DNA from: Candidatus Aerophobota bacterium | GTDB lineage: Bacteria; Aerophobota; Aerophobia; Aerophobales; B47-G16 | Direction of reading: 5' to 3' | Length of the DNA: 53,372 bases | Assembly: GCA_003648815.1 (NCBI GenBank) | Contig: QMPZ01000001.1 | Span: 1 to 53,372 of the forward strand | Shown here: piece by piece, positions 6,400 to 53,372 of the stretch | Numbering within the stretch: the stretch's first letter is position 1 | How the letters are laid out: every line of letters begins with the position of its first letter | Notes under the pieces: generated by a model | What the model was told of the DNA's origin: nothing | The model's input: the letters and a program-made list of their open reading frames with translations, nothing else | The model's database searches: none | Program-made: the position numbers and the translations under genes

Positions 6400-7083
6400 A
6401 TGGACGAGCACTTGAGGGAGAGATGGCTTTTAGTTTGGGAAAAAAATAAGAAAAGGTTCTTTTTATATACCTTGTTGGTATTAGCGGTGGCGGGCATTTT
6501 AACAGGGCTTTCCATCTTTCGAAATGAGATGGACAAAAAAGCCTGGGCAAAATTTAACTTAGCCACCACTTATTTTCAGCAGGCACAAAGCAGCGAAGAT
6601 GATAAAGGAAGACTGGCTAAGTATCAAAAGGCAAAGTCCTTATACGAGGAAGTTCTTTCTCGATATCCCTGGGCTAAGGTGAGGAAGGAGGCTCTTTTCT
6701 ATCTGGGAAACTGTCTTTATTGTCTTGGAGAATACAAACAGGCAGGCCAGATTTTGCAAAAGTTTTGTAGAAGATATGAGGATGACTACTTTTTTCCCTG
6801 GGCAGAGATCAAGCTCGCCTTTGCCTACGAGCAACAGGGACAATATGAAGAGGCTATAAAGACCTATGAGGAGCTATTGAAGAAATATCCTGACAACGTA
6901 CTCGCTCCCCAAGCCCTTTTGGGAATGGCAAGATGCCTTGAGCTTCAGGGAAAGTGGAATGAGGCTCTGTCTAAGTATGAGGAGCTTGTTTCTCGCTATC
7001 CCTTATCCAGTGAGGCTGCTTTAGGTGAGGTCCAAATTCAGAGGCTAAAAGGAGAAAGAAAGGTCATTATGAGTGAAGGGTGA
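6400..7083 (+). CDS. Membrane-anchored TPR-repeat protein (YbgF/YfgM-like)
   Basis: ATG 6400 follows the upstream stop directly. One N-terminal TM helix (FFLYTLLVLAVAGILTGLSIF), then TPR-like repeats (..AL..LG.CLY.LGEY..A). The stop TGA lies within a heptamer repeat. Confidence 0.7.
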   Translation: MDEHLRERWLLVWEKNKKRFFLYTLLVLAVAGILTGLSIFRNEMDKKAWAKFNLATTYFQQAQSSEDDKGRLAKYQKAKSLYEEVLSRYPWAKVRKEALFYLGNCLYCLGEYKQAGQILQKFCRRYEDDYFFPWAEIKLAFAYEQQGQYEEAIKTYEELLKKYPDNVLAPQALLGMARCLELQGKWNEALSKYEELVSRYPLSSEAALGEVQIQRLKGERKVIMSEG

Positions 7084-7094
7084 AGAGTGAAGGG
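7074..7094 (+). repeat. Three-unit heptamer repeat TGAAGGG TGAAGAG TGAAGGG
   Basis: Same unit family as the array at 53237-53327. The 16-mer TGAGTGAAGGGTGAAG is shared with 53233-53248. Confidence 0.8.
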
Positions 7095-7127
7095 TGCGCA
7101 TAAACGCTCACCTCAAAATATCGGAGA

Positions 7128-51204: not shown

Positions 51205-52273
51205 CTACAATTTTTCTCCCTCCTAACTCCTTTTTAAGAGACTCCAACAGCTCCTCCATCTCTCCGTTTAAGATATCCTCTAAGTTGTATAAGGTAAGAT
51301 GAATGCGGTGATCTGTTACTCTATTTTGGGGAAAGTTATAAGTTCTTATACGCTCCGACCTTTCAGCTCTTTTGATCTGGACCTTTCTTTGTTTGGAGAT
51401 TTCATTTTGTTGTTCTATTTTTTTTCTCTGGAGGAGCTTGGCACGCAAAATTCGCATCGCTCTGGCTTTATTCTGATGCTGGGAGCGTTCATCCTGACAT
51501 TGAACTACAATTCCCGTGGGAAGGTGCGTTATTCTCACTGCTGAATCGGTAACATTTACATGTTGCCCTCCTGCTCCTCGAGAGCGGAAGGTCTCTATTA
51601 ACAGGTCCTCAGGTTTTATCTCCACTTCTACCTCCTGCGCCTCTGGAAGAACAGCCACCGTAGCGGTAGAGGTATGAATTCTTCCACTTGACTCGGTTAC
51701 GGGGATTCTCTGAACTCGATGTACTCCGCTTTCATAGCGTAAATTAGAGAAGACATCTTTTCCCTCTAAGGCAAAGATGGCCTCCTTAAACCCACCCATG
51801 TCCGTGGGATGAAAATGAATGTTTTCCATTCGCCAGCCCTTTCTCTCCGCGAGACGAGCGTACATTTTGTAAAGATCAGCAACGAACAAAGCTGCCTCTT
51901 CTCCTCCAGCTCCTGCTCTGATCTCCACAATTATGTTTCTATGAGAGTGCTCATCCTCGCTGACTAAGAACCTGGAAATTTCCTCCTCTATCTTTCCCAT
52001 CTTCTTTTTTAACCGGTCCTTCTCCTCCCTGGCTAATTCCTTAATTTCTTCTTCTTGGTCATCCAAAAGAAGCTCCTCTATCTTCTTCATTTCCTCCTGG
52101 GATTTTTTATATTCCCTCCACAGCTGAACACCCTCCTCTAACTCCTTTCTCTCCCTGTTGTACTTAGATAAAAGCTTTCTGTCCAAAAGGACCTCAGGAC
52201 GAGAAAGTAGTCCAGTGAGCTCCTCGTAGCGTTCTTCCATCTTTTTTAATTTAATGATCTCTTGCTCATTCAT
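51194..52273 (-). CDS. prfA: Peptide chain release factor 1
   Basis: PVT tripeptide (..[14 protein letters not shown]..) and GGQ (..RGAGGQHVN..). ATG 52273 is 6 nt after GAGGGGTG. The ORF-track GTG 52282 sits inside that SD. Confidence 0.95.
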
Positions 52274-52319
52274 AGACTTCACCCCTCATCCTTATGAGAG
52301 CTCTTACCCTTTATCTTGA

Positions 52320-52403
52320 AGTATAGGAATTTATAAACATTTGTTTAATAAAGGGGGGAGCAGCGAAGCGTTGAGGGGGGAAAGATTCCCCCCTCAAGTG
52401 TCG
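52320..52403 (+). mobile_element. 84-nt AT-arm + GC-hairpin repeat element (copy B), flanked by 9-bp direct repeats TTATCTTGA (52311-52319 / 52404-52412)
   Basis: Near-identical to 2328-2410. Extended stem CGA-AGCG-TTGAGGGGGG / CCCCCCTCAA-GTG-TCG with loop AAAGATT. Flanking repeats read directly from the sequence. Confidence 0.75.
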
Positions 52404-53014
52404 TTATCTTGATCTAATTCCACATTCCAATAAGCGACATCTAAGAAGCTTTTCCAGCTCTCCTCCTTTATATTGGCAAGGTTTTCTTTTATAAAGGTCC
52501 CCCATTCGGGTTTTTTAGGTTTACGAATAAGTCTCATTCCCGCCTCTTTCAGGGTTTTGTTCCCCTTGCGCAGATTACAGGAAATACAAGAACAAACCAC
52601 ATTCTCCCAGGTATCCTTTCCCCCTCGAGACAGAGGAACCACGTGGTCTATGTTCAGCTCTTCCGGTCTGAAGGTCTTTCCGCAATATTGGCAGGTATTT
52701 TTGTCCCTTCTATAGATATTCCTGCGGGTAAACTTCACCTCACGAGGAGGAAGTTTATCGTAGATCATTAAAAGGATAACCCGGGGGACCTTGATCTTAT
52801 AGGTGATTGTCCTTATCACATCCCCATTATCTGCGGAATTTTGAGAAAAATCCCTCCATTCCTCAAATCCGAATGTATAAAAGGAACCTCCCTCTTTTAA
52901 TACCACCTGGGCATGCCTCAGGTAAAGAAGGCAGATTGCCCTCCTTACCGAACAGACATCGATCACCTGCCACAGCTTATTTAATACCAAGACCTTAGAG
53001 TTAAGTGCCTCCAT
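52394..53014 (-). CDS. Small HNH endonuclease (widespread about 170-210 aa bacterial family with N-terminal ..VLVLN.. domain)
   Basis: HNH core CQYCG..(14)..IDHVVPLSRGG.DTWENVV..C..CNLRKG. N-terminal SKVLVLNKLWQVIDV..RRAICLL pattern. Start set to ATG 53014 because ATG 53083 lies inside the repeat element's conserved AT arm. Confidence 0.8.
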   Translation of the reverse strand: MEALNSKVLVLNKLWQVIDVCSVRRAICLLYLRHAQVVLKEGGSFYTFGFEEWRDFSQNSADNGDVIRTITYKIKVPRVILLMIYDKLPPREVKFTRRNIYRRDKNTCQYCGKTFRPEELNIDHVVPLSRGGKDTWENVVCSCISCNLRKGNKTLKEAGMRLIRKPKKPEWGTFIKENLANIKEESWKSFLDVAYWNVELDQDNDT

Positions 53015-53062
53015 TTTTGCTAACCTGATAAAATTAGACCCTTGCCTGTTCTTGTAACTTGA

Positions 53063-53184
53063 AGTATAGAAATTTATAAACACAATTTATAAACATTTGT
53101 TTAATAAAAGGGGGAGCAGCGAAGCGTTGAGGGGGTCATTCCGAAGGAATGGGCAAAAGCCTATATTTCCCCCCTCAAGTGTCG
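53063..53184 (+). mobile_element. Repeat element copy C with a 12-nt internal duplication in the AT arm and a 34-nt expanded apical loop
   Basis: AGTATAGAAATTTATAAACAcAATTTATAAACATTTGTTTAATAAAA + GGGGGAGCAGCGAAGCGTTGAGGGGG - TCATTCCGAAGGAATGGGCAAAAGCCTATATTT - CCCCCCTCAAGTGTCG, followed by TTTTCTTGA. Confidence 0.8.
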
Positions 53185-53198
53185 TTTTCTTGATGTTT

Positions 53199-53226
53199 AT
53201 TATAGACATAGATGAGCAACTGTCAA
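53199..53226 (-). promoter_or_regulatory. Near-consensus sigma70 promoter reading toward the HNH gene
   Basis: Minus strand: TTGACA (53226-53221), 16-nt spacer, TATAAT (53204-53199). The predicted TSS near 53192 is at the edge of repeat copy C. Confidence 0.6.
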
Positions 53227-53236
53227 GCAATGTGAG

Positions 53237-53327
53237 TGAAGGGTGAAGGGTGAGGGGTGAAGAGTGAAGAGTAAAGAGTAAAGAGTAAAGAGTGAAGAGT
53301 GAAGAGTGAAGGGTGAAGGGTGAGGGG
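53237..53327 (+). repeat. 13-unit tandem heptanucleotide array (TGAAGGG x2, TGAGGGG, TGAAGAG x2, TAAAGAG x3, TGAAGAG x2, TGAAGGG x2, TGAGGGG)
   Basis: Exact 7-nt periodicity read from the sequence. Unit variants are ordered AAB-CC-DDD-CC-AAB. Confidence 0.9.
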
Positions 53328-53372
53328 AGATGCTTTCCCTTTACCAATGCAAAATCGGCCCTTGCTTCCTCA

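What the first reader, a model, noticed from the sequence alone, without database searches (positions are those of the whole stretch)
53058..53226. Second element copy fills the HNH 5' leader just downstream of a near-consensus promoter; the stem is kept but the loop is expanded to 34 nt
On the minus strand TTGACA-N16-TATAAT (53226-53199) predicts a TSS near 53192, at the edge of the repeat (..ATCAAGAAAACGACACTTGAGG..). The element (53063-53184) has the same orientation as copy B. Its 7-nt loop is replaced by TCATTCCGAAGGAATGGGCAAAAGCCTATATTT, which contains its own mini-hairpins CATTCC-GAA-GGAATG and GGC-AAAA-GCC. The G/C stem and the flanking CGA/TCG pairs are retained. The AT arm carries a 12-nt duplication (AATTTATAAACA at 53071-53082 and 53084-53095). 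Deleting the element would leave the promoter about 45-50 nt from ATG 53014, an ordinary leader length. As it stands, the HNH mRNA should carry a leader of about 180 nt made almost entirely of the element. A conserved stem with a freely variable apex suggests the stem itself is the selected or recognised feature.
Basis: partly seen in the sequence, partly recalled or inferred. Interest (0 to 1): 0.6.

Follow-up and report, generated by a model that had tools for sequence, protein, structure and literature searches.

The report
Hairpin mobile element in HNH leader
A 131-base non-coding mobile element sits between a conserved promoter and the start of a small nuclease gene, and in sister strains the same spot is empty, or the tip of the element's hairpin is flipped or lacks a 27-base insert; this makes it a recently active relative of IS91-type jumping genes and not a gene-specific regulatory RNA.

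Summary
A 12/12 sigma-70 promoter (53226-53199, minus strand) fires straight into a 131-nt repeat element (53062-53192), giving a 5' UTR of about 177 nt. A sister strain (L123) has the exact empty site, with a UTR of about 46 nt. Orthologous HNH genes across Candidatus Aerophobetes keep a similar promoter, in 8 of 14 loci 22-39 nt from the start codon.

The element is one of about 70 loci of a modular family in this 1.8-Mb MAG. It inserts next to CTTG and ends in CTTG. Its left end matches the left end of IS91-family (Y2 HUH) insertion sequences found in related genera. It is best read as a non-autonomous IS91-type miniature element.

The "freely variable apex" reading fails. The 33-nt loop is a 6-nt loop plus a discrete, conserved 27-nt cassette of two GAA/GNRA mini-hairpins. 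The cassette has 31 matches in this genome and occurs in 15 of 31 genomes of the order, in both orientations. At this one insertion, sister strains carry the cassette, lack it, or have the whole hairpin inverted.

A gene-specific RNA function is unlikely. The mRNA carries the non-terminator strand of the element.

The parts
53199..53226 (-). Sigma-70-type promoter of the HNH gene: -35 TTGACA (53226-53221), 16-nt spacer, -10 TATAAT (53204-53199). The predicted start is about 53192/53191.
   Evidence: 12/12 consensus match. The sequence is unique in the genome. It is identical or nearly identical in most sister-strain contigs. A comparable promoter sits upstream of HNH in 12 of 14 Aerophobetes loci. 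The start site is inferred, not measured.
53062..53192 (+). Inserted 131-nt non-autonomous element (copy C), given in the element's own orientation, which is antisense to HNH. It is preceded by target CTTG (53058-53061) and ends in CTTG (53189-53192).
   Evidence: The empty-site allele in L123, and also in L131/L132, lacks exactly these 131 nt. Family junction table: the left flank is CTTG in 19 of 22 full copies and CTCG in 2.
53062..53109 (+). Left end and AT-rich arm (AAGTATAGAAATTTATAAACA...TTTAATAAAA). It forms the AT hairpin and carries a 13-nt tandem duplication at 53071-53095 that is private to this copy.
   Evidence: TRF. DNA and RNA folds. The duplication is shared by every filled allele in sister strains, which points to one insertion event. 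The left-end core is related to ATAGGAAAGTAT of IS91-like elements in relatives.
53110..53126 (+). G run plus AGCAGCGAAGCG. It contains an exact GCGAAGC mini-hairpin word (53119-53125) directly 5' of the main stem.
   Evidence: Conserved in the oriented copies. GCGAAGC is described as an extraordinarily stable DNA mini-hairpin (PMC13037366).
53127..53178 (.). Main GC hairpin: 5' arm TTGAGGGGG (53127-53135), 33-nt apex (53136-53168), 3' arm CCCCCCTCAA (53169-53178).
   Evidence: Folds on both strands. 45 exact hairpins of this type in the genome and 199 in the order. Compensatory changes at 2 of 10 pairs.
53136..53162 (+). Nested 27-nt cassette TCATTCCGAAGGAATGGGCAAAAGCCT, made of two mini-hairpins (CATTCC-GAA-GGAATG and GGC-AAAA-GCC). 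The original 6-nt loop ATATTT follows at 53163-53168.
   Evidence: The cassette is absent at this same copy in L093. It is inverted together with the stem in L121, L122, L127 and L128. GAAA and GGAA tetraloop variants occur in L125/L126 and in L120/L099. There are 31 matches in this genome, and matches in 15 of 31 genomes of the order.
53179..53192 (+). Right end GTGTCGTTTTCTTG. On the + strand, GTGTCG extends the stem and a U/T tract follows directly, which is a terminator-like shape. On the HNH mRNA strand this is the first 14 nt of the transcript.
   Evidence: Fold of the + strand. Right-end consensus. The IS91-like element in a relative ends with a GC hairpin plus CTTTACTTG.
53015..53061 (-). 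Ancestral leader of HNH, including the CTTG/CAAG target. It makes up essentially the whole 5' UTR (about 46 nt) in the empty-site strain.
   Evidence: L123 alignment. It has no significant structure of its own (z = +0.5).
52394..53014 (-). HNH endonuclease gene (206 aa here). Its last codons and stop codon are supplied by copy B.
   Evidence: Pfam HNH_5 and HNH. It is single-copy and conserved through the order. The 205-aa form, ending 30 nt before prfA, occurs in strains without copy B.
53234..53323 (.). Heptamer array (GAGTGAA/GGGTGAA, 12.9 units) just upstream of the -35 box. It is context for the finding, not part of the element.
   Evidence: TRF. Arrays of the same units lie at dozens of loci in the genome. 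The unit number at this site runs from about 5 to more than 40 between sister strains.

Best explanation
Copy C is an insertion of a small non-coding mobile element into the 5' untranslated region of the HNH-prfA transcription unit. It lies at about +1 of an ancestral sigma-70 promoter.

Anatomy of the element: a left end with an AT-rich hairpin, a GCGAAGC mini-hairpin, a 9-10-bp GC hairpin, and a right end ...GTCGTTTTCTTG. It lies next to a CTTG target and itself ends in CTTG.

It is most likely a miniature, transposase-less derivative of an IS91-family (Y2 HUH, single-strand or rolling-circle) insertion sequence of Aerophobetes, moved in trans by such a transposase. The step 'moved by a Y2 transposase' is inferred. 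The end similarity and the target rule are shown.

After this one insertion, the palindromic hairpin has kept rearranging. Because its two arms are identical inverted repeats that about 50 other copies share, recombination, gene conversion or replication template switching at the stem flips the apex and swaps loop variants. This includes gain or loss of a conserved 27-nt twin mini-hairpin cassette. The polymorphism is shown; the process behind it is inferred.

For the HNH gene the element is mainly a tolerated passenger. It lengthens the leader from about 46 to about 177 nt and puts a stable stem-loop 14 nt from the predicted 5' end, which could stabilise the mRNA (inferred). It sits in the orientation in which the hairpin is not followed by a U tract, so it should not terminate transcription. 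Copies in the opposite, terminator-like orientation are probably not tolerated inside this transcription unit.
For: Insertion:
- An exact empty site occurs in L123, whose HNH CDS differs from the window at 2 of 584 nt, and in L131/L132.
- Other genera have no element in the short leaders shown. 91 HNH loci of relatives contain no such hairpin.
- All filled alleles share the private 13-nt duplication, which points to one event.

Promoter:
- 12/12 consensus match.
- A comparable promoter scores at least 10/12 in 12 of 14 Aerophobetes loci, and lies 22-39 nt from the start in 8 of them.

Family:
- 71 loci.
- Spans from left end to right end are only 71-173 nt, so there is no autonomous copy in this MAG.

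IS91 link:
- The left flank is CTTG in 19 of 22 copies and CTCG in 2. The right end is ...TTTTCTTG. No duplication beyond the tetranucleotide holds consistently.
- IS91 makes no target-site duplication, targets CTTG/GTTC/CTCG and has subterminal palindromes (PMC13181058).
- Y2 transposase genes occur in 10 of 31 genomes of the order.
- The elements around them in G017, G011 and G004 start CTTG|ATTCTATAGGAAAGTATT. This shares the 12-mer ATAGGAAAGTAT with the miniature element's left end, offset by one base from CTTG.
- The G017 element ends in a GC hairpin plus CTTTACTTG.
- That 12-mer occurs 19 times in this genome against 0.2 expected, and 18 of those are at left ends. Two copies (C110, C142) join the IS-type left end directly to the GGGGGAGCAGCG-hairpin core.

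Apex dynamics at this same locus:
- Cassette present: window, L094, L096, L124.
- Tetraloop variants: L125, L126, L120, L099.
- Cassette absent: L093.
- Whole hairpin inverted, including the 5G/6C asymmetry: L121, L122, L127, L128, from several projects and assemblers.
- Copy B shows three apex alleles as well.

Orientation:
- The + strand folds into an extended stem followed directly by UUUUCUU. The mRNA strand has no U tract after the stem.
- 25 of 34 loci are co-oriented with their neighbouring genes and 8 are opposite. Where both neighbouring genes could be scored (4 of the 8, including copy B), both run the same way.
Against: - No Y2 (or Y1) transposase gene was found in this MAG, which is 91% complete. 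So a mobilising enzyme is not shown for this genome.
- Two intact Y2 genes in G028 have no such ends nearby.
- The end similarity rests on about 25 nt at the left end, and at the right end on shared architecture plus 7 of 8 terminal bases.
- Copy B and three other copies show longer matching flanks (up to 9 nt). This looks like a target duplication and does not fit a pure IS91 model.
- The empty allele L123 nests among filled haplotypes. So loss by precise excision, or recombination between strains, cannot be told apart from ancestral absence.
- No expression data exist.
- Apex alleles come from metagenome assemblies of a repeat. Each state is seen in several independent assemblies and reaches into unique flanks, but reads were not inspected.
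- Gene calls behind the orientation count are crude ORF calls.
Confidence: 0.72

Rival explanations
1. The element in the leader is a selected cis-regulatory RNA for HNH (attenuator, thermometer, riboswitch-like leader or processed small RNA). Under this reading the conserved stem is the functional RNA helix.
For: The stem-loop is stable on the mRNA strand (z = -4.3). It lies 14 nt from the predicted 5' end. The stem shows compensatory changes across the order.
Against: - The same element lies at about 70 unrelated loci, mostly in the other orientation relative to genes.
- There is no Rfam match, even at E up to 10.
- Sister strains have the leader without it, with the apex inverted, or with the promoter deleted (L120).
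- The whole 208-nt leader is not unusually structured (z = -1.1).
- The ribosome-binding region lies outside the element.
Confidence: 0.05
2. The family is a REP/BIME-type system: palindromic units spread by a RAYT (Y1 HUH) transposase, or merely amplified by recombination. Copy C would be one mosaic block of it.
For: - The organisation is mosaic and modular: 1-3 tandem hairpin modules and several flank families that share the same hairpin.
- The location is extragenic.
- Hairpin loops that accept insertions recall IS1397 in E. coli palindromic units (from my own knowledge, not checked here).
- Y1 genes occur in 15 of 31 genomes of the order.
Against: - There is no Y1 gene in this MAG.
- Full copies have two different defined ends and a clean 131-nt insertion with an empty site.
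- The left end matches that of Y2-encoding elements.
- The CTTG rule matches IS91. A REP-type conserved 5' tetranucleotide next to each palindrome is not evident.
Confidence: 0.1
3. The 27-nt cassette is itself the active unit. It would be a tiny single-strand DNA module of very stable GAA/GNRA mini-hairpins that inserts at the junction between the 5' arm and the loop of extruded hairpins. Or it is kept because it serves as a priming or protein-recognition signal on single-stranded DNA.
For: - The boundaries are discrete. In the complete cassette hairpins listed, the cassette abuts the G arm on its TCATTCC side.
- It occurs in both orientations, 13 against 6.
- It occurs in TTGA-stem and TCGA-stem subfamilies and behind different flanks in other genera.
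- It is present or absent at two loci among near-identical strains.
- Tetraloop variants GAAA, GGAA and GCAA all belong to the stable DNA mini-hairpin set. CCGAAGG and GCGAAGC words are recognised at primase sites (PMC13037366).
Against: - The cassette-less allele L093 also differs at a neighbouring loop base (AAACAT against AAATAT). The cassette-bearing copy B allele of L094 equals the hairpin of another copy (C9). Both are explained in one step by gene conversion from other family members.
- No enzyme is known to move 27 nt.
- This copy carries GCAAAAGC, a weakened variant.
Confidence: 0.15
4. The strain-to-strain differences at the apex are artefacts of assembling a dispersed repeat from metagenomes.
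For: The arms are repeated about 50 times. Contigs often break at these elements (L096, L129 and L130 end inside them).
Against: - Each allele is seen in several assemblies from different projects and assemblers.
- The copy-specific 13-nt duplication lies about 45 nt from the loop, and unique flank lies 25 nt from it on the other side. So k-mers and reads of 100-150 nt tie the loop to the locus.
- The flipped allele also carries the flipped 5G/6C stem asymmetry and its own stem mutation.
Confidence: 0.05

Closest known systems
IS91-family insertion sequences (Y2 HUH transposase; oriIS/terIS ends) and miniature derivatives of them
   Same: - Insertion next to the tetranucleotide CTTG (CTCG in a minority of copies), with the same tetranucleotide at the other boundary and no consistent longer duplication.
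- Two different ends, each with a subterminal palindrome.
- The left-end sequence is shared with elements that encode a Y2 transposase in related Aerophobetes. One such element ends in a GC hairpin plus TTTACTTG, against hairpin plus TTTTCTTG here.
   Different: - It is only 92-173 nt long and has no gene. No Y2 gene is detected in this MAG.
- Tandem hairpin modules and a nested cassette are not features described for IS91.
- Some copies show 8-9 nt of matching flank.
- No similarity to the ends of E. coli IS91 itself was tested.
Correia elements (NEMIS/CREE) of Neisseria and other bacterial MITEs (ERIC, RUP, BOX)
   Same: - Small, abundant, non-coding, hairpin-forming repeats that land in 5' leaders and between genes. 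There they become part of mRNAs and can supply promoter or terminator-like signals (from my own knowledge).
- Here 10 of 33 right ends form a -35/-10 arrangement with the flank, against 3.9% for all TTGA sites.
- BOX-like modularity, with 1-3 tandem middle modules.
   Different: - Correia elements have terminal inverted repeats and a TA duplication, and derive from cut-and-paste elements.
- This element has unlike ends and a CTTG rule.
- No RNase III processing or promoter activity has been tested here.
REP/BIME palindromic units of enterobacteria and pseudomonads
   Same: - Extragenic GC-rich palindromes combined with alternative flanking motifs into mosaics.
- Loops that are hot spots for insertion.
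- A DNA-level rather than RNA-level logic.
   Different: Defined asymmetric full-length copies with clean empty sites. No RAYT gene in this genome. A link to Y2 rather than Y1 elements.
Small hairpin-bounded inversions ('flip-flop' loops) of plastid genomes
   Same: The loop between two short inverted-repeat arms is found in both orientations among close relatives, and it changes state repeatedly (PMC6824564). Here the apex of copy C is inverted in L121, L122, L127 and L128 relative to the window.
   Different: Here the hairpin belongs to a multi-copy mobile family. So ectopic conversion from other copies is an alternative to in-place inversion, and a 27-nt cassette comes and goes as well.
Extraordinarily stable DNA mini-hairpins d(GCGAAGC)/d(GCGAAAGC) at single-strand origins and priming sites
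   Same: Exact GCGAAGC next to the stem. GCGAAAGC, GCGGAAGC and GCGCAAGC in the cassette of other copies. CCGAAGG in the first mini-hairpin.
   Different: No replication or priming role is shown here. This particular copy has the weakened GCAAAAGC.

Membership tests
IS91-family derived miniature element | Insertion beside a specific tetranucleotide (CTTG/GTTC, less often CTCG) without a target-site duplication | tested here: met
   The empty site GTAACTTG|ATGTTT becomes GTAACTTG[131 nt ending CTTG]ATGTTT. The left flank is CTTG in 19 of 22 copies and CTCG in 2. Rule as stated in PMC13181058. Caveat: 4 copies show longer matching flanks.
IS91-family derived miniature element | Two functionally different ends, each with subterminal imperfect palindromes | tested here: met
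   An AT hairpin lies near the left end and a GC hairpin 14 nt from the right end, on both strands.
IS91-family derived miniature element | Ends homologous to those of an autonomous element encoding a Y2 (HUH) transposase | tested here: met
   Left end: CTTG|ATTCTATAGGAAAGTATT in Y2-encoding elements of G017, G011 and G004, against CTTG|AGGCATAGGAAAGTATA in the miniature element (A6). Copies C110 and C142 carry the IS-type left end itself. Right end: GC hairpin plus CTTTACTTG against hairpin plus TTTTCTTG. The similarity is short, about 25 nt.
IS91-family derived miniature element | A Y2 transposase available in the same cell | tested here: not met
   No PF04986 match in this MAG, which is 91% complete and whose repeats assemble poorly. 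The family is present in 10 of 31 genomes of the order.
IS91-family derived miniature element | Transposition through single-strand circular intermediates made by rolling-circle replication | not testable with these tools
   Needs biochemistry or a genetic assay.
REP/BIME with RAYT | Y1 (RAYT) transposase gene flanked by the palindromes | tested here: not met
   No PF01797 match in this MAG, while the control genomes rang. Flanks of Y1 genes in relatives were not examined.
Classical TIR-type MITE (for example Correia) | Terminal inverted repeats and a fixed-length target duplication | tested here: not met
   The ends AAGTATAGG... and ...GTCGTTTTCTTG are not inverted copies of each other. Only CTTG is repeated consistently.
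Rho-independent terminator | GC-rich stem followed directly by a U tract on the transcribed strand | tested here: not met
   For the HNH mRNA strand the stem is followed by CGCUUCGCUGCUCCCCC. The feature is met only on the opposite (+) strand, where UUUUCUU follows the extended stem. The simple scan found no terminator in the region on either strand; the + strand reading rests on the fold.
Known structured RNA family (Rfam) | Match to a curated covariance model | tested here: not met
   No hit at gathering score in the window other than tRNAs. Only chance-level hits at E of 1 or more in 52250-53372.

The most novel reading that the evidence does not exclude
The hairpin tip is a site of frequent, possibly enzyme-driven DNA rearrangement. 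A 27-nt twin mini-hairpin cassette, far smaller than any described mobile DNA, would move between the loops of a host repeat family on single-stranded DNA and flip with the hairpin. This would give each locus several interchangeable states. The cassette's very stable GAA/GNRA DNA mini-hairpins may serve as recognition or priming signals on the lagging-strand template.
Probability: 0.15. Interest if true: 0.75.

Novelty: new variant of a known kind. Interest (0 to 1): 0.5.

Why it matters
It turns an apparent structured leader into a dated natural experiment. One insertion of a miniature IS91-type element sits exactly at the start of a transcript, and the empty, filled, flipped, cassette-less and promoter-deleted alleles all survive in one uncultured population.

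Three points give it weight:
- Miniature derivatives of IS91-family elements are, to my knowledge, little described. Here both the miniature copies and candidate full-length relatives are in hand.
- Palindromic repeat tips can change state far faster than the surrounding sequence. That matters for annotation, for strain typing and for reading 'covariation' as evidence of RNA function.
- The repeated appearance of GCGAAGC-type mini-hairpins points to single-stranded DNA, not RNA, as the level at which these elements work.

For the HNH gene itself the consequence is probably modest.

Tried and rejected
- Rfam at gathering score and at E up to 10: nothing relevant.
- JGI metagenome scan with the HNH protein: only relatives of 78% identity or less, no sister strains. 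Sister strains came from exact-protein look-ups instead.
So there was no read-level check of alleles and no RNA evidence for the start site.
- HNH as the mobilising enzyme or as cargo: rejected.
  - HNH is single-copy and conserved through the order and beyond, at 58-62% identity in other phyla.
  - It is present in strains with both sites empty (L123).
  - Its loci in 91 relatives carry no such hairpin.
  - The two flanking copies arrived separately: C first, then B.
- Y1 and Y2 transposases in this MAG: none.
- Hairpins or element ends beside the intact Y2 genes of G028: none.
- An autonomous long copy in this genome: none. All spans from left end to right end are 71-173 nt.
- MAFFT alignment of the cassette-bearing hairpins put the G/C runs out of register (A4). 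Covariation was therefore counted from exact patterns and from equal-length hairpins (A5).
It was dropped because the GTTRRRY/RYYYAAC-like words are in the wrong order. This was checked by eye only.
- Literature search for repeats in Aerophobetes: nothing relevant.
Full report
**What is there**

On the minus strand the window reads TTGACA-N16-TATAAT (53226-53199), then AAACAT, then the repeat. The promoter scan gives 12 of 12 matches, and this is the only strong site in 52200-53372. The promoter stretch has no other copy in the genome.

The repeat has the same orientation as copy B (52312-52418) and copy A (2306-2467). It contains:
- an AT arm with a 13-nt tandem duplication at 53071-53095;
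- AGCAGCGAAGCG;
- the stem TTGAGGGGG/CCCCCCTCAA around a 33-nt loop (53136-53168);
- the right end GTGTCGTTTTCTTG.

The corrections are that the loop is 33 nt, the duplication period is 13 nt, and the element runs to 53192.

**It is an insertion, and the promoter is ancestral**

The organism is a Candidatus Aerophobetes MAG, going by the names sources give to relatives' HNH proteins. The MAG is 1.8 Mb in 247 contigs and 91% complete.

The HNH gene is single-copy and conserved through the order. In 12 of 14 Aerophobetes loci a promoter scoring at least 10 of 12 lies upstream. In 8 of them the -10 box ends 22-39 nt before the start codon.

Exact-protein look-ups recovered 17 contigs of sister strains:
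- L123 has an HNH coding sequence that differs from the window at 2 of 584 positions. It reads TATAATAAACATCAAG|TTACAAGAACAGG...ATG, which is the window minus exactly 131 nt.
- L131 and L132, a lineage about 6% diverged in this coding sequence (35 of 584 positions), are also empty.

The 5' UTR is thus about 46 nt when empty and about 177 nt when filled, and the predicted start falls in the CAAG at the junction. All filled alleles share the private 13-nt duplication, so they descend from one insertion.

Copy B is absent from 13 contigs, of which L124-L128 and others carry copy C. So C came first and B later.

**What kind of element**

BLAST finds 71 loci of the family, and there are 45 exact hairpins of this type. 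Full copies measure 92-94 nt (short loop) or 118-119 nt (long loop), or more with tandem hairpin modules. No span from left end to right end exceeds 173 nt. All copies are intergenic by crude ORF calls.

In 19 of 22 full copies the left flank ends in CTTG (CTCG in 2), and the element ends ...GTCGTTTTCTTG. IS91-family elements make no target duplication, choose CTTG/GTTC/CTCG and have subterminal palindromes (PMC13181058).

This MAG has no Y2 or Y1 transposase gene, but 10 of 31 genomes of the order have Y2 genes. The evidence linking the miniature element to those genes is:
- Around the Y2 genes in G017, G011 and G004 the element begins CTTG|ATTCTATAGGAAAGTATT.
- The miniature element begins CTTG|AGGCATAGGAAAGTATA (A6).
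- The G017 element ends in a GC hairpin plus CTTTACTTG.
- The 12-mer ATAGGAAAGTAT occurs 19 times in this genome against 0.2 expected, and 18 of those are at left ends.
- Two copies (C110, C142) join the IS-type left end itself to the GGGGGAGCAGCG-hairpin core.

I therefore file the family as a miniature derivative of an Aerophobetes IS91-type element. This supports and extends the earlier follow-up of copy B. Mobilisation by a Y2 enzyme remains inferred.

**The apex is not free**

Loops fall into classes:
- 6-8 nt: ATGTTT, AAGATT or AAAGATT, and their reverse complements;
- 33 nt: one 27-nt cassette (TCATTCCGAAGGAATGGGCGAAAGCCT) plus the 6-nt loop.

The cassette has 31 matches here (21 exact) and occurs in 15 of 31 genomes of the order, 34 times in G014. 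The reversed control pattern gives 0-1 matches.

Among the complete cassette hairpins listed, the cassette abuts the G arm by its TCATTCC side. It occurs in both orientations relative to the flanks, 13 against 6. In other genera it sits in the same kind of hairpin behind different flanks.

Its words are GCGAAAGC, GCGGAAGC, GCGCAAGC and CCGAAGG, and GCGAAGC lies beside the stem. These belong to the set of very stable DNA mini-hairpins, whose RNA versions are much weaker (PMC13037366). This copy carries the weakened GCAAAAGC.

**The apex changes between sister strains at this one insertion**

| State of copy C | Contigs |
|---|---|
| Cassette present, as in the window | L094, L096, L124 |
| GAAA tetraloop variant | L125, L126 |
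| GGAA tetraloop variant | L120, L099 |
| No cassette, loop AAACAT | L093 |
| Whole hairpin inverted, including its 5G/6C asymmetry | L121, L122, L127, L128 |

Copy B likewise has two different short loops and a cassette form. Each state is seen in several assemblies from different projects.

The cassette-less allele also differs at a neighbouring loop base. The cassette allele of copy B equals the hairpin of another copy (C9). So conversion from other family members, in either alignment of the palindromic arms, explains the changes in single steps. In-place inversion, as in plastid hairpins (PMC6824564), is an alternative for the flips.

**Stem conservation**

Across the order, exact hairpins have T-A at the second pair 199 times, C-G 43 times (all in one genus) and a mismatch 3 times. 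On distinct equal-length hairpins, 2 of 10 pairs show changes on both sides and 8 never vary. The stem is therefore maintained as a palindrome. This fits a DNA element end as well as it fits an RNA helix.

**Consequence for HNH**

On the + strand the stem extends through GCGA/GUCG and is followed at once by UUUUCUU, which looks like a terminator. On the mRNA strand no U tract follows.

Of 34 loci, 25 are co-oriented with their neighbouring genes and 8 are opposite, including B and C. Where both neighbouring genes could be scored (4 of the 8, including copy B), both run the same way. Ten of 33 right ends form a -35/-10 arrangement with the flank, against 3.9% for all TTGA sites.

I infer that inside this transcription unit only the non-terminating orientation is tolerated. 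The element is then a passenger that may stabilise the 5' end.

The whole leader is not unusually structured, and the ribosome-binding region lies outside the element. L120 has lost the promoter and the 5' arm by a deletion from the heptamer array into the loop. So this promoter is dispensable in at least one strain.

**Limits**

- There are no reads and no RNA data.
- Gene calls are crude.
- The end similarity to the Y2-encoding elements is short.
- No transposase gene was found in this MAG.
- The empty allele nests among filled haplotypes, so excision, recombination and ancestral polymorphism cannot be separated.

Noticed in passing
window 53234-53323; also window 7073-7096 and dozens of loci on other contigs of the genome: Heptamer arrays (GAGTGAA/GGGTGAA/GAGTAAA) are spread through the genome, often at contig ends and next to the hairpin elements. 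Upstream of the HNH promoter the array runs from about 5 to more than 40 units between sister strains. Other genera (L005, L007, L008) have short tandem repeats of different sequence at the same place.
   Followed up: partly
L120:1000-1215 (JGI Ga0370355_1000191): In this sister strain a deletion joins the heptamer array directly to the hairpin loop. It removes the HNH promoter, the element's right end and the 5' stem arm. HNH would then depend on read-through from the GAF-HD gene upstream.
   Followed up: partly
L099:1-405 and its 3' end (ENA ERZ27248092 k141_32572): This is a 1.2-kb contig. HNH with both element copies sits in different surroundings. The switch points lie at the hairpin of copy C and exactly at the left terminus of copy B. 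The promoter side is replaced by a GGTTAAAATGTCTTTGACCATTCC module. This is either a real rearrangement at the repeats or a chimeric assembly.
   Followed up: no
genome contigs C4:31033, C11:3225, C21:7765, C30:209, C42:6536, C45:2330, C54:1006 and others (about 20 loci): A second repeat family is present (TACGGTGGTTAAAATGTCTTCGACCATTCC-TTGCG-GAATGACACCGCC...). It shares the CATTCC/GGAATG mini-hairpin with the cassette and is found fused to halves of the first family at that palindrome. This suggests recombination at shared mini-hairpins.
   Followed up: partly
L134:985-2535 (G017:C13), L142 (G011:C204), L146 (G004:C62): These are IS91-like elements of about 1.55 kb in related genera. In L134 the element starts CTTG|ATTCTATAGGAAAGTATT, carries a 436-aa Y2 transposase ORF plus a small downstream ORF, and ends in a GC hairpin plus CTTTACTTG. 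The L134 copy has a right-end-like TTTTACTTG 8 nt before its left boundary.
   Followed up: partly
genome contigs C110:4936-5000 and C142:878-945: These copies have a left end identical to the IS-type end (CTTGATTCTATAGGAAAGTATT) and a hairpin whose loop is a third mini-hairpin (CAATGC-TTCG-GCATT). They look like intermediates between the insertion sequence and the common miniature form.
   Followed up: no
L123 compared with the other sister contigs (HNH CDS): The strain with both sites empty differs from the window at only 2 of 584 coding positions, while several filled strains differ at 7-10. This means precise loss of the element, recombination between strains, or long-lived polymorphism.
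   Followed up: partly
window 52394-53014 and loci L013-L092: This about 205-aa HNH protein is very widespread: more than 1600 proteins at E of 1e-60 or better, at 58-62% identity in Verrucomicrobiota- and Methylomirabilota-labelled records. It often has its own TTGACA promoter only 18-29 nt from the start codon. Its function is unknown, and it abuts prfA only in part of the Aerophobetes.
   Followed up: no
genome contig C33:37-175 compared with window 53234-53372: The start of contig C33 repeats the last 139 nt of the window at 95% identity (heptamer array plus 45 nt of unique-looking sequence). This is a near-duplicate locus or a strain variant co-assembled in the MAG.
   Followed up: no
G018:C19:29980-30014: A relative carries TTGAGGGGGAAATTCCGGAGGAATTTCCCCCTCAA. 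This is a perfect long palindrome in which only the first mini-hairpin extends the stem. It may be an intermediate form of the cassette-bearing hairpin.
   Followed up: no
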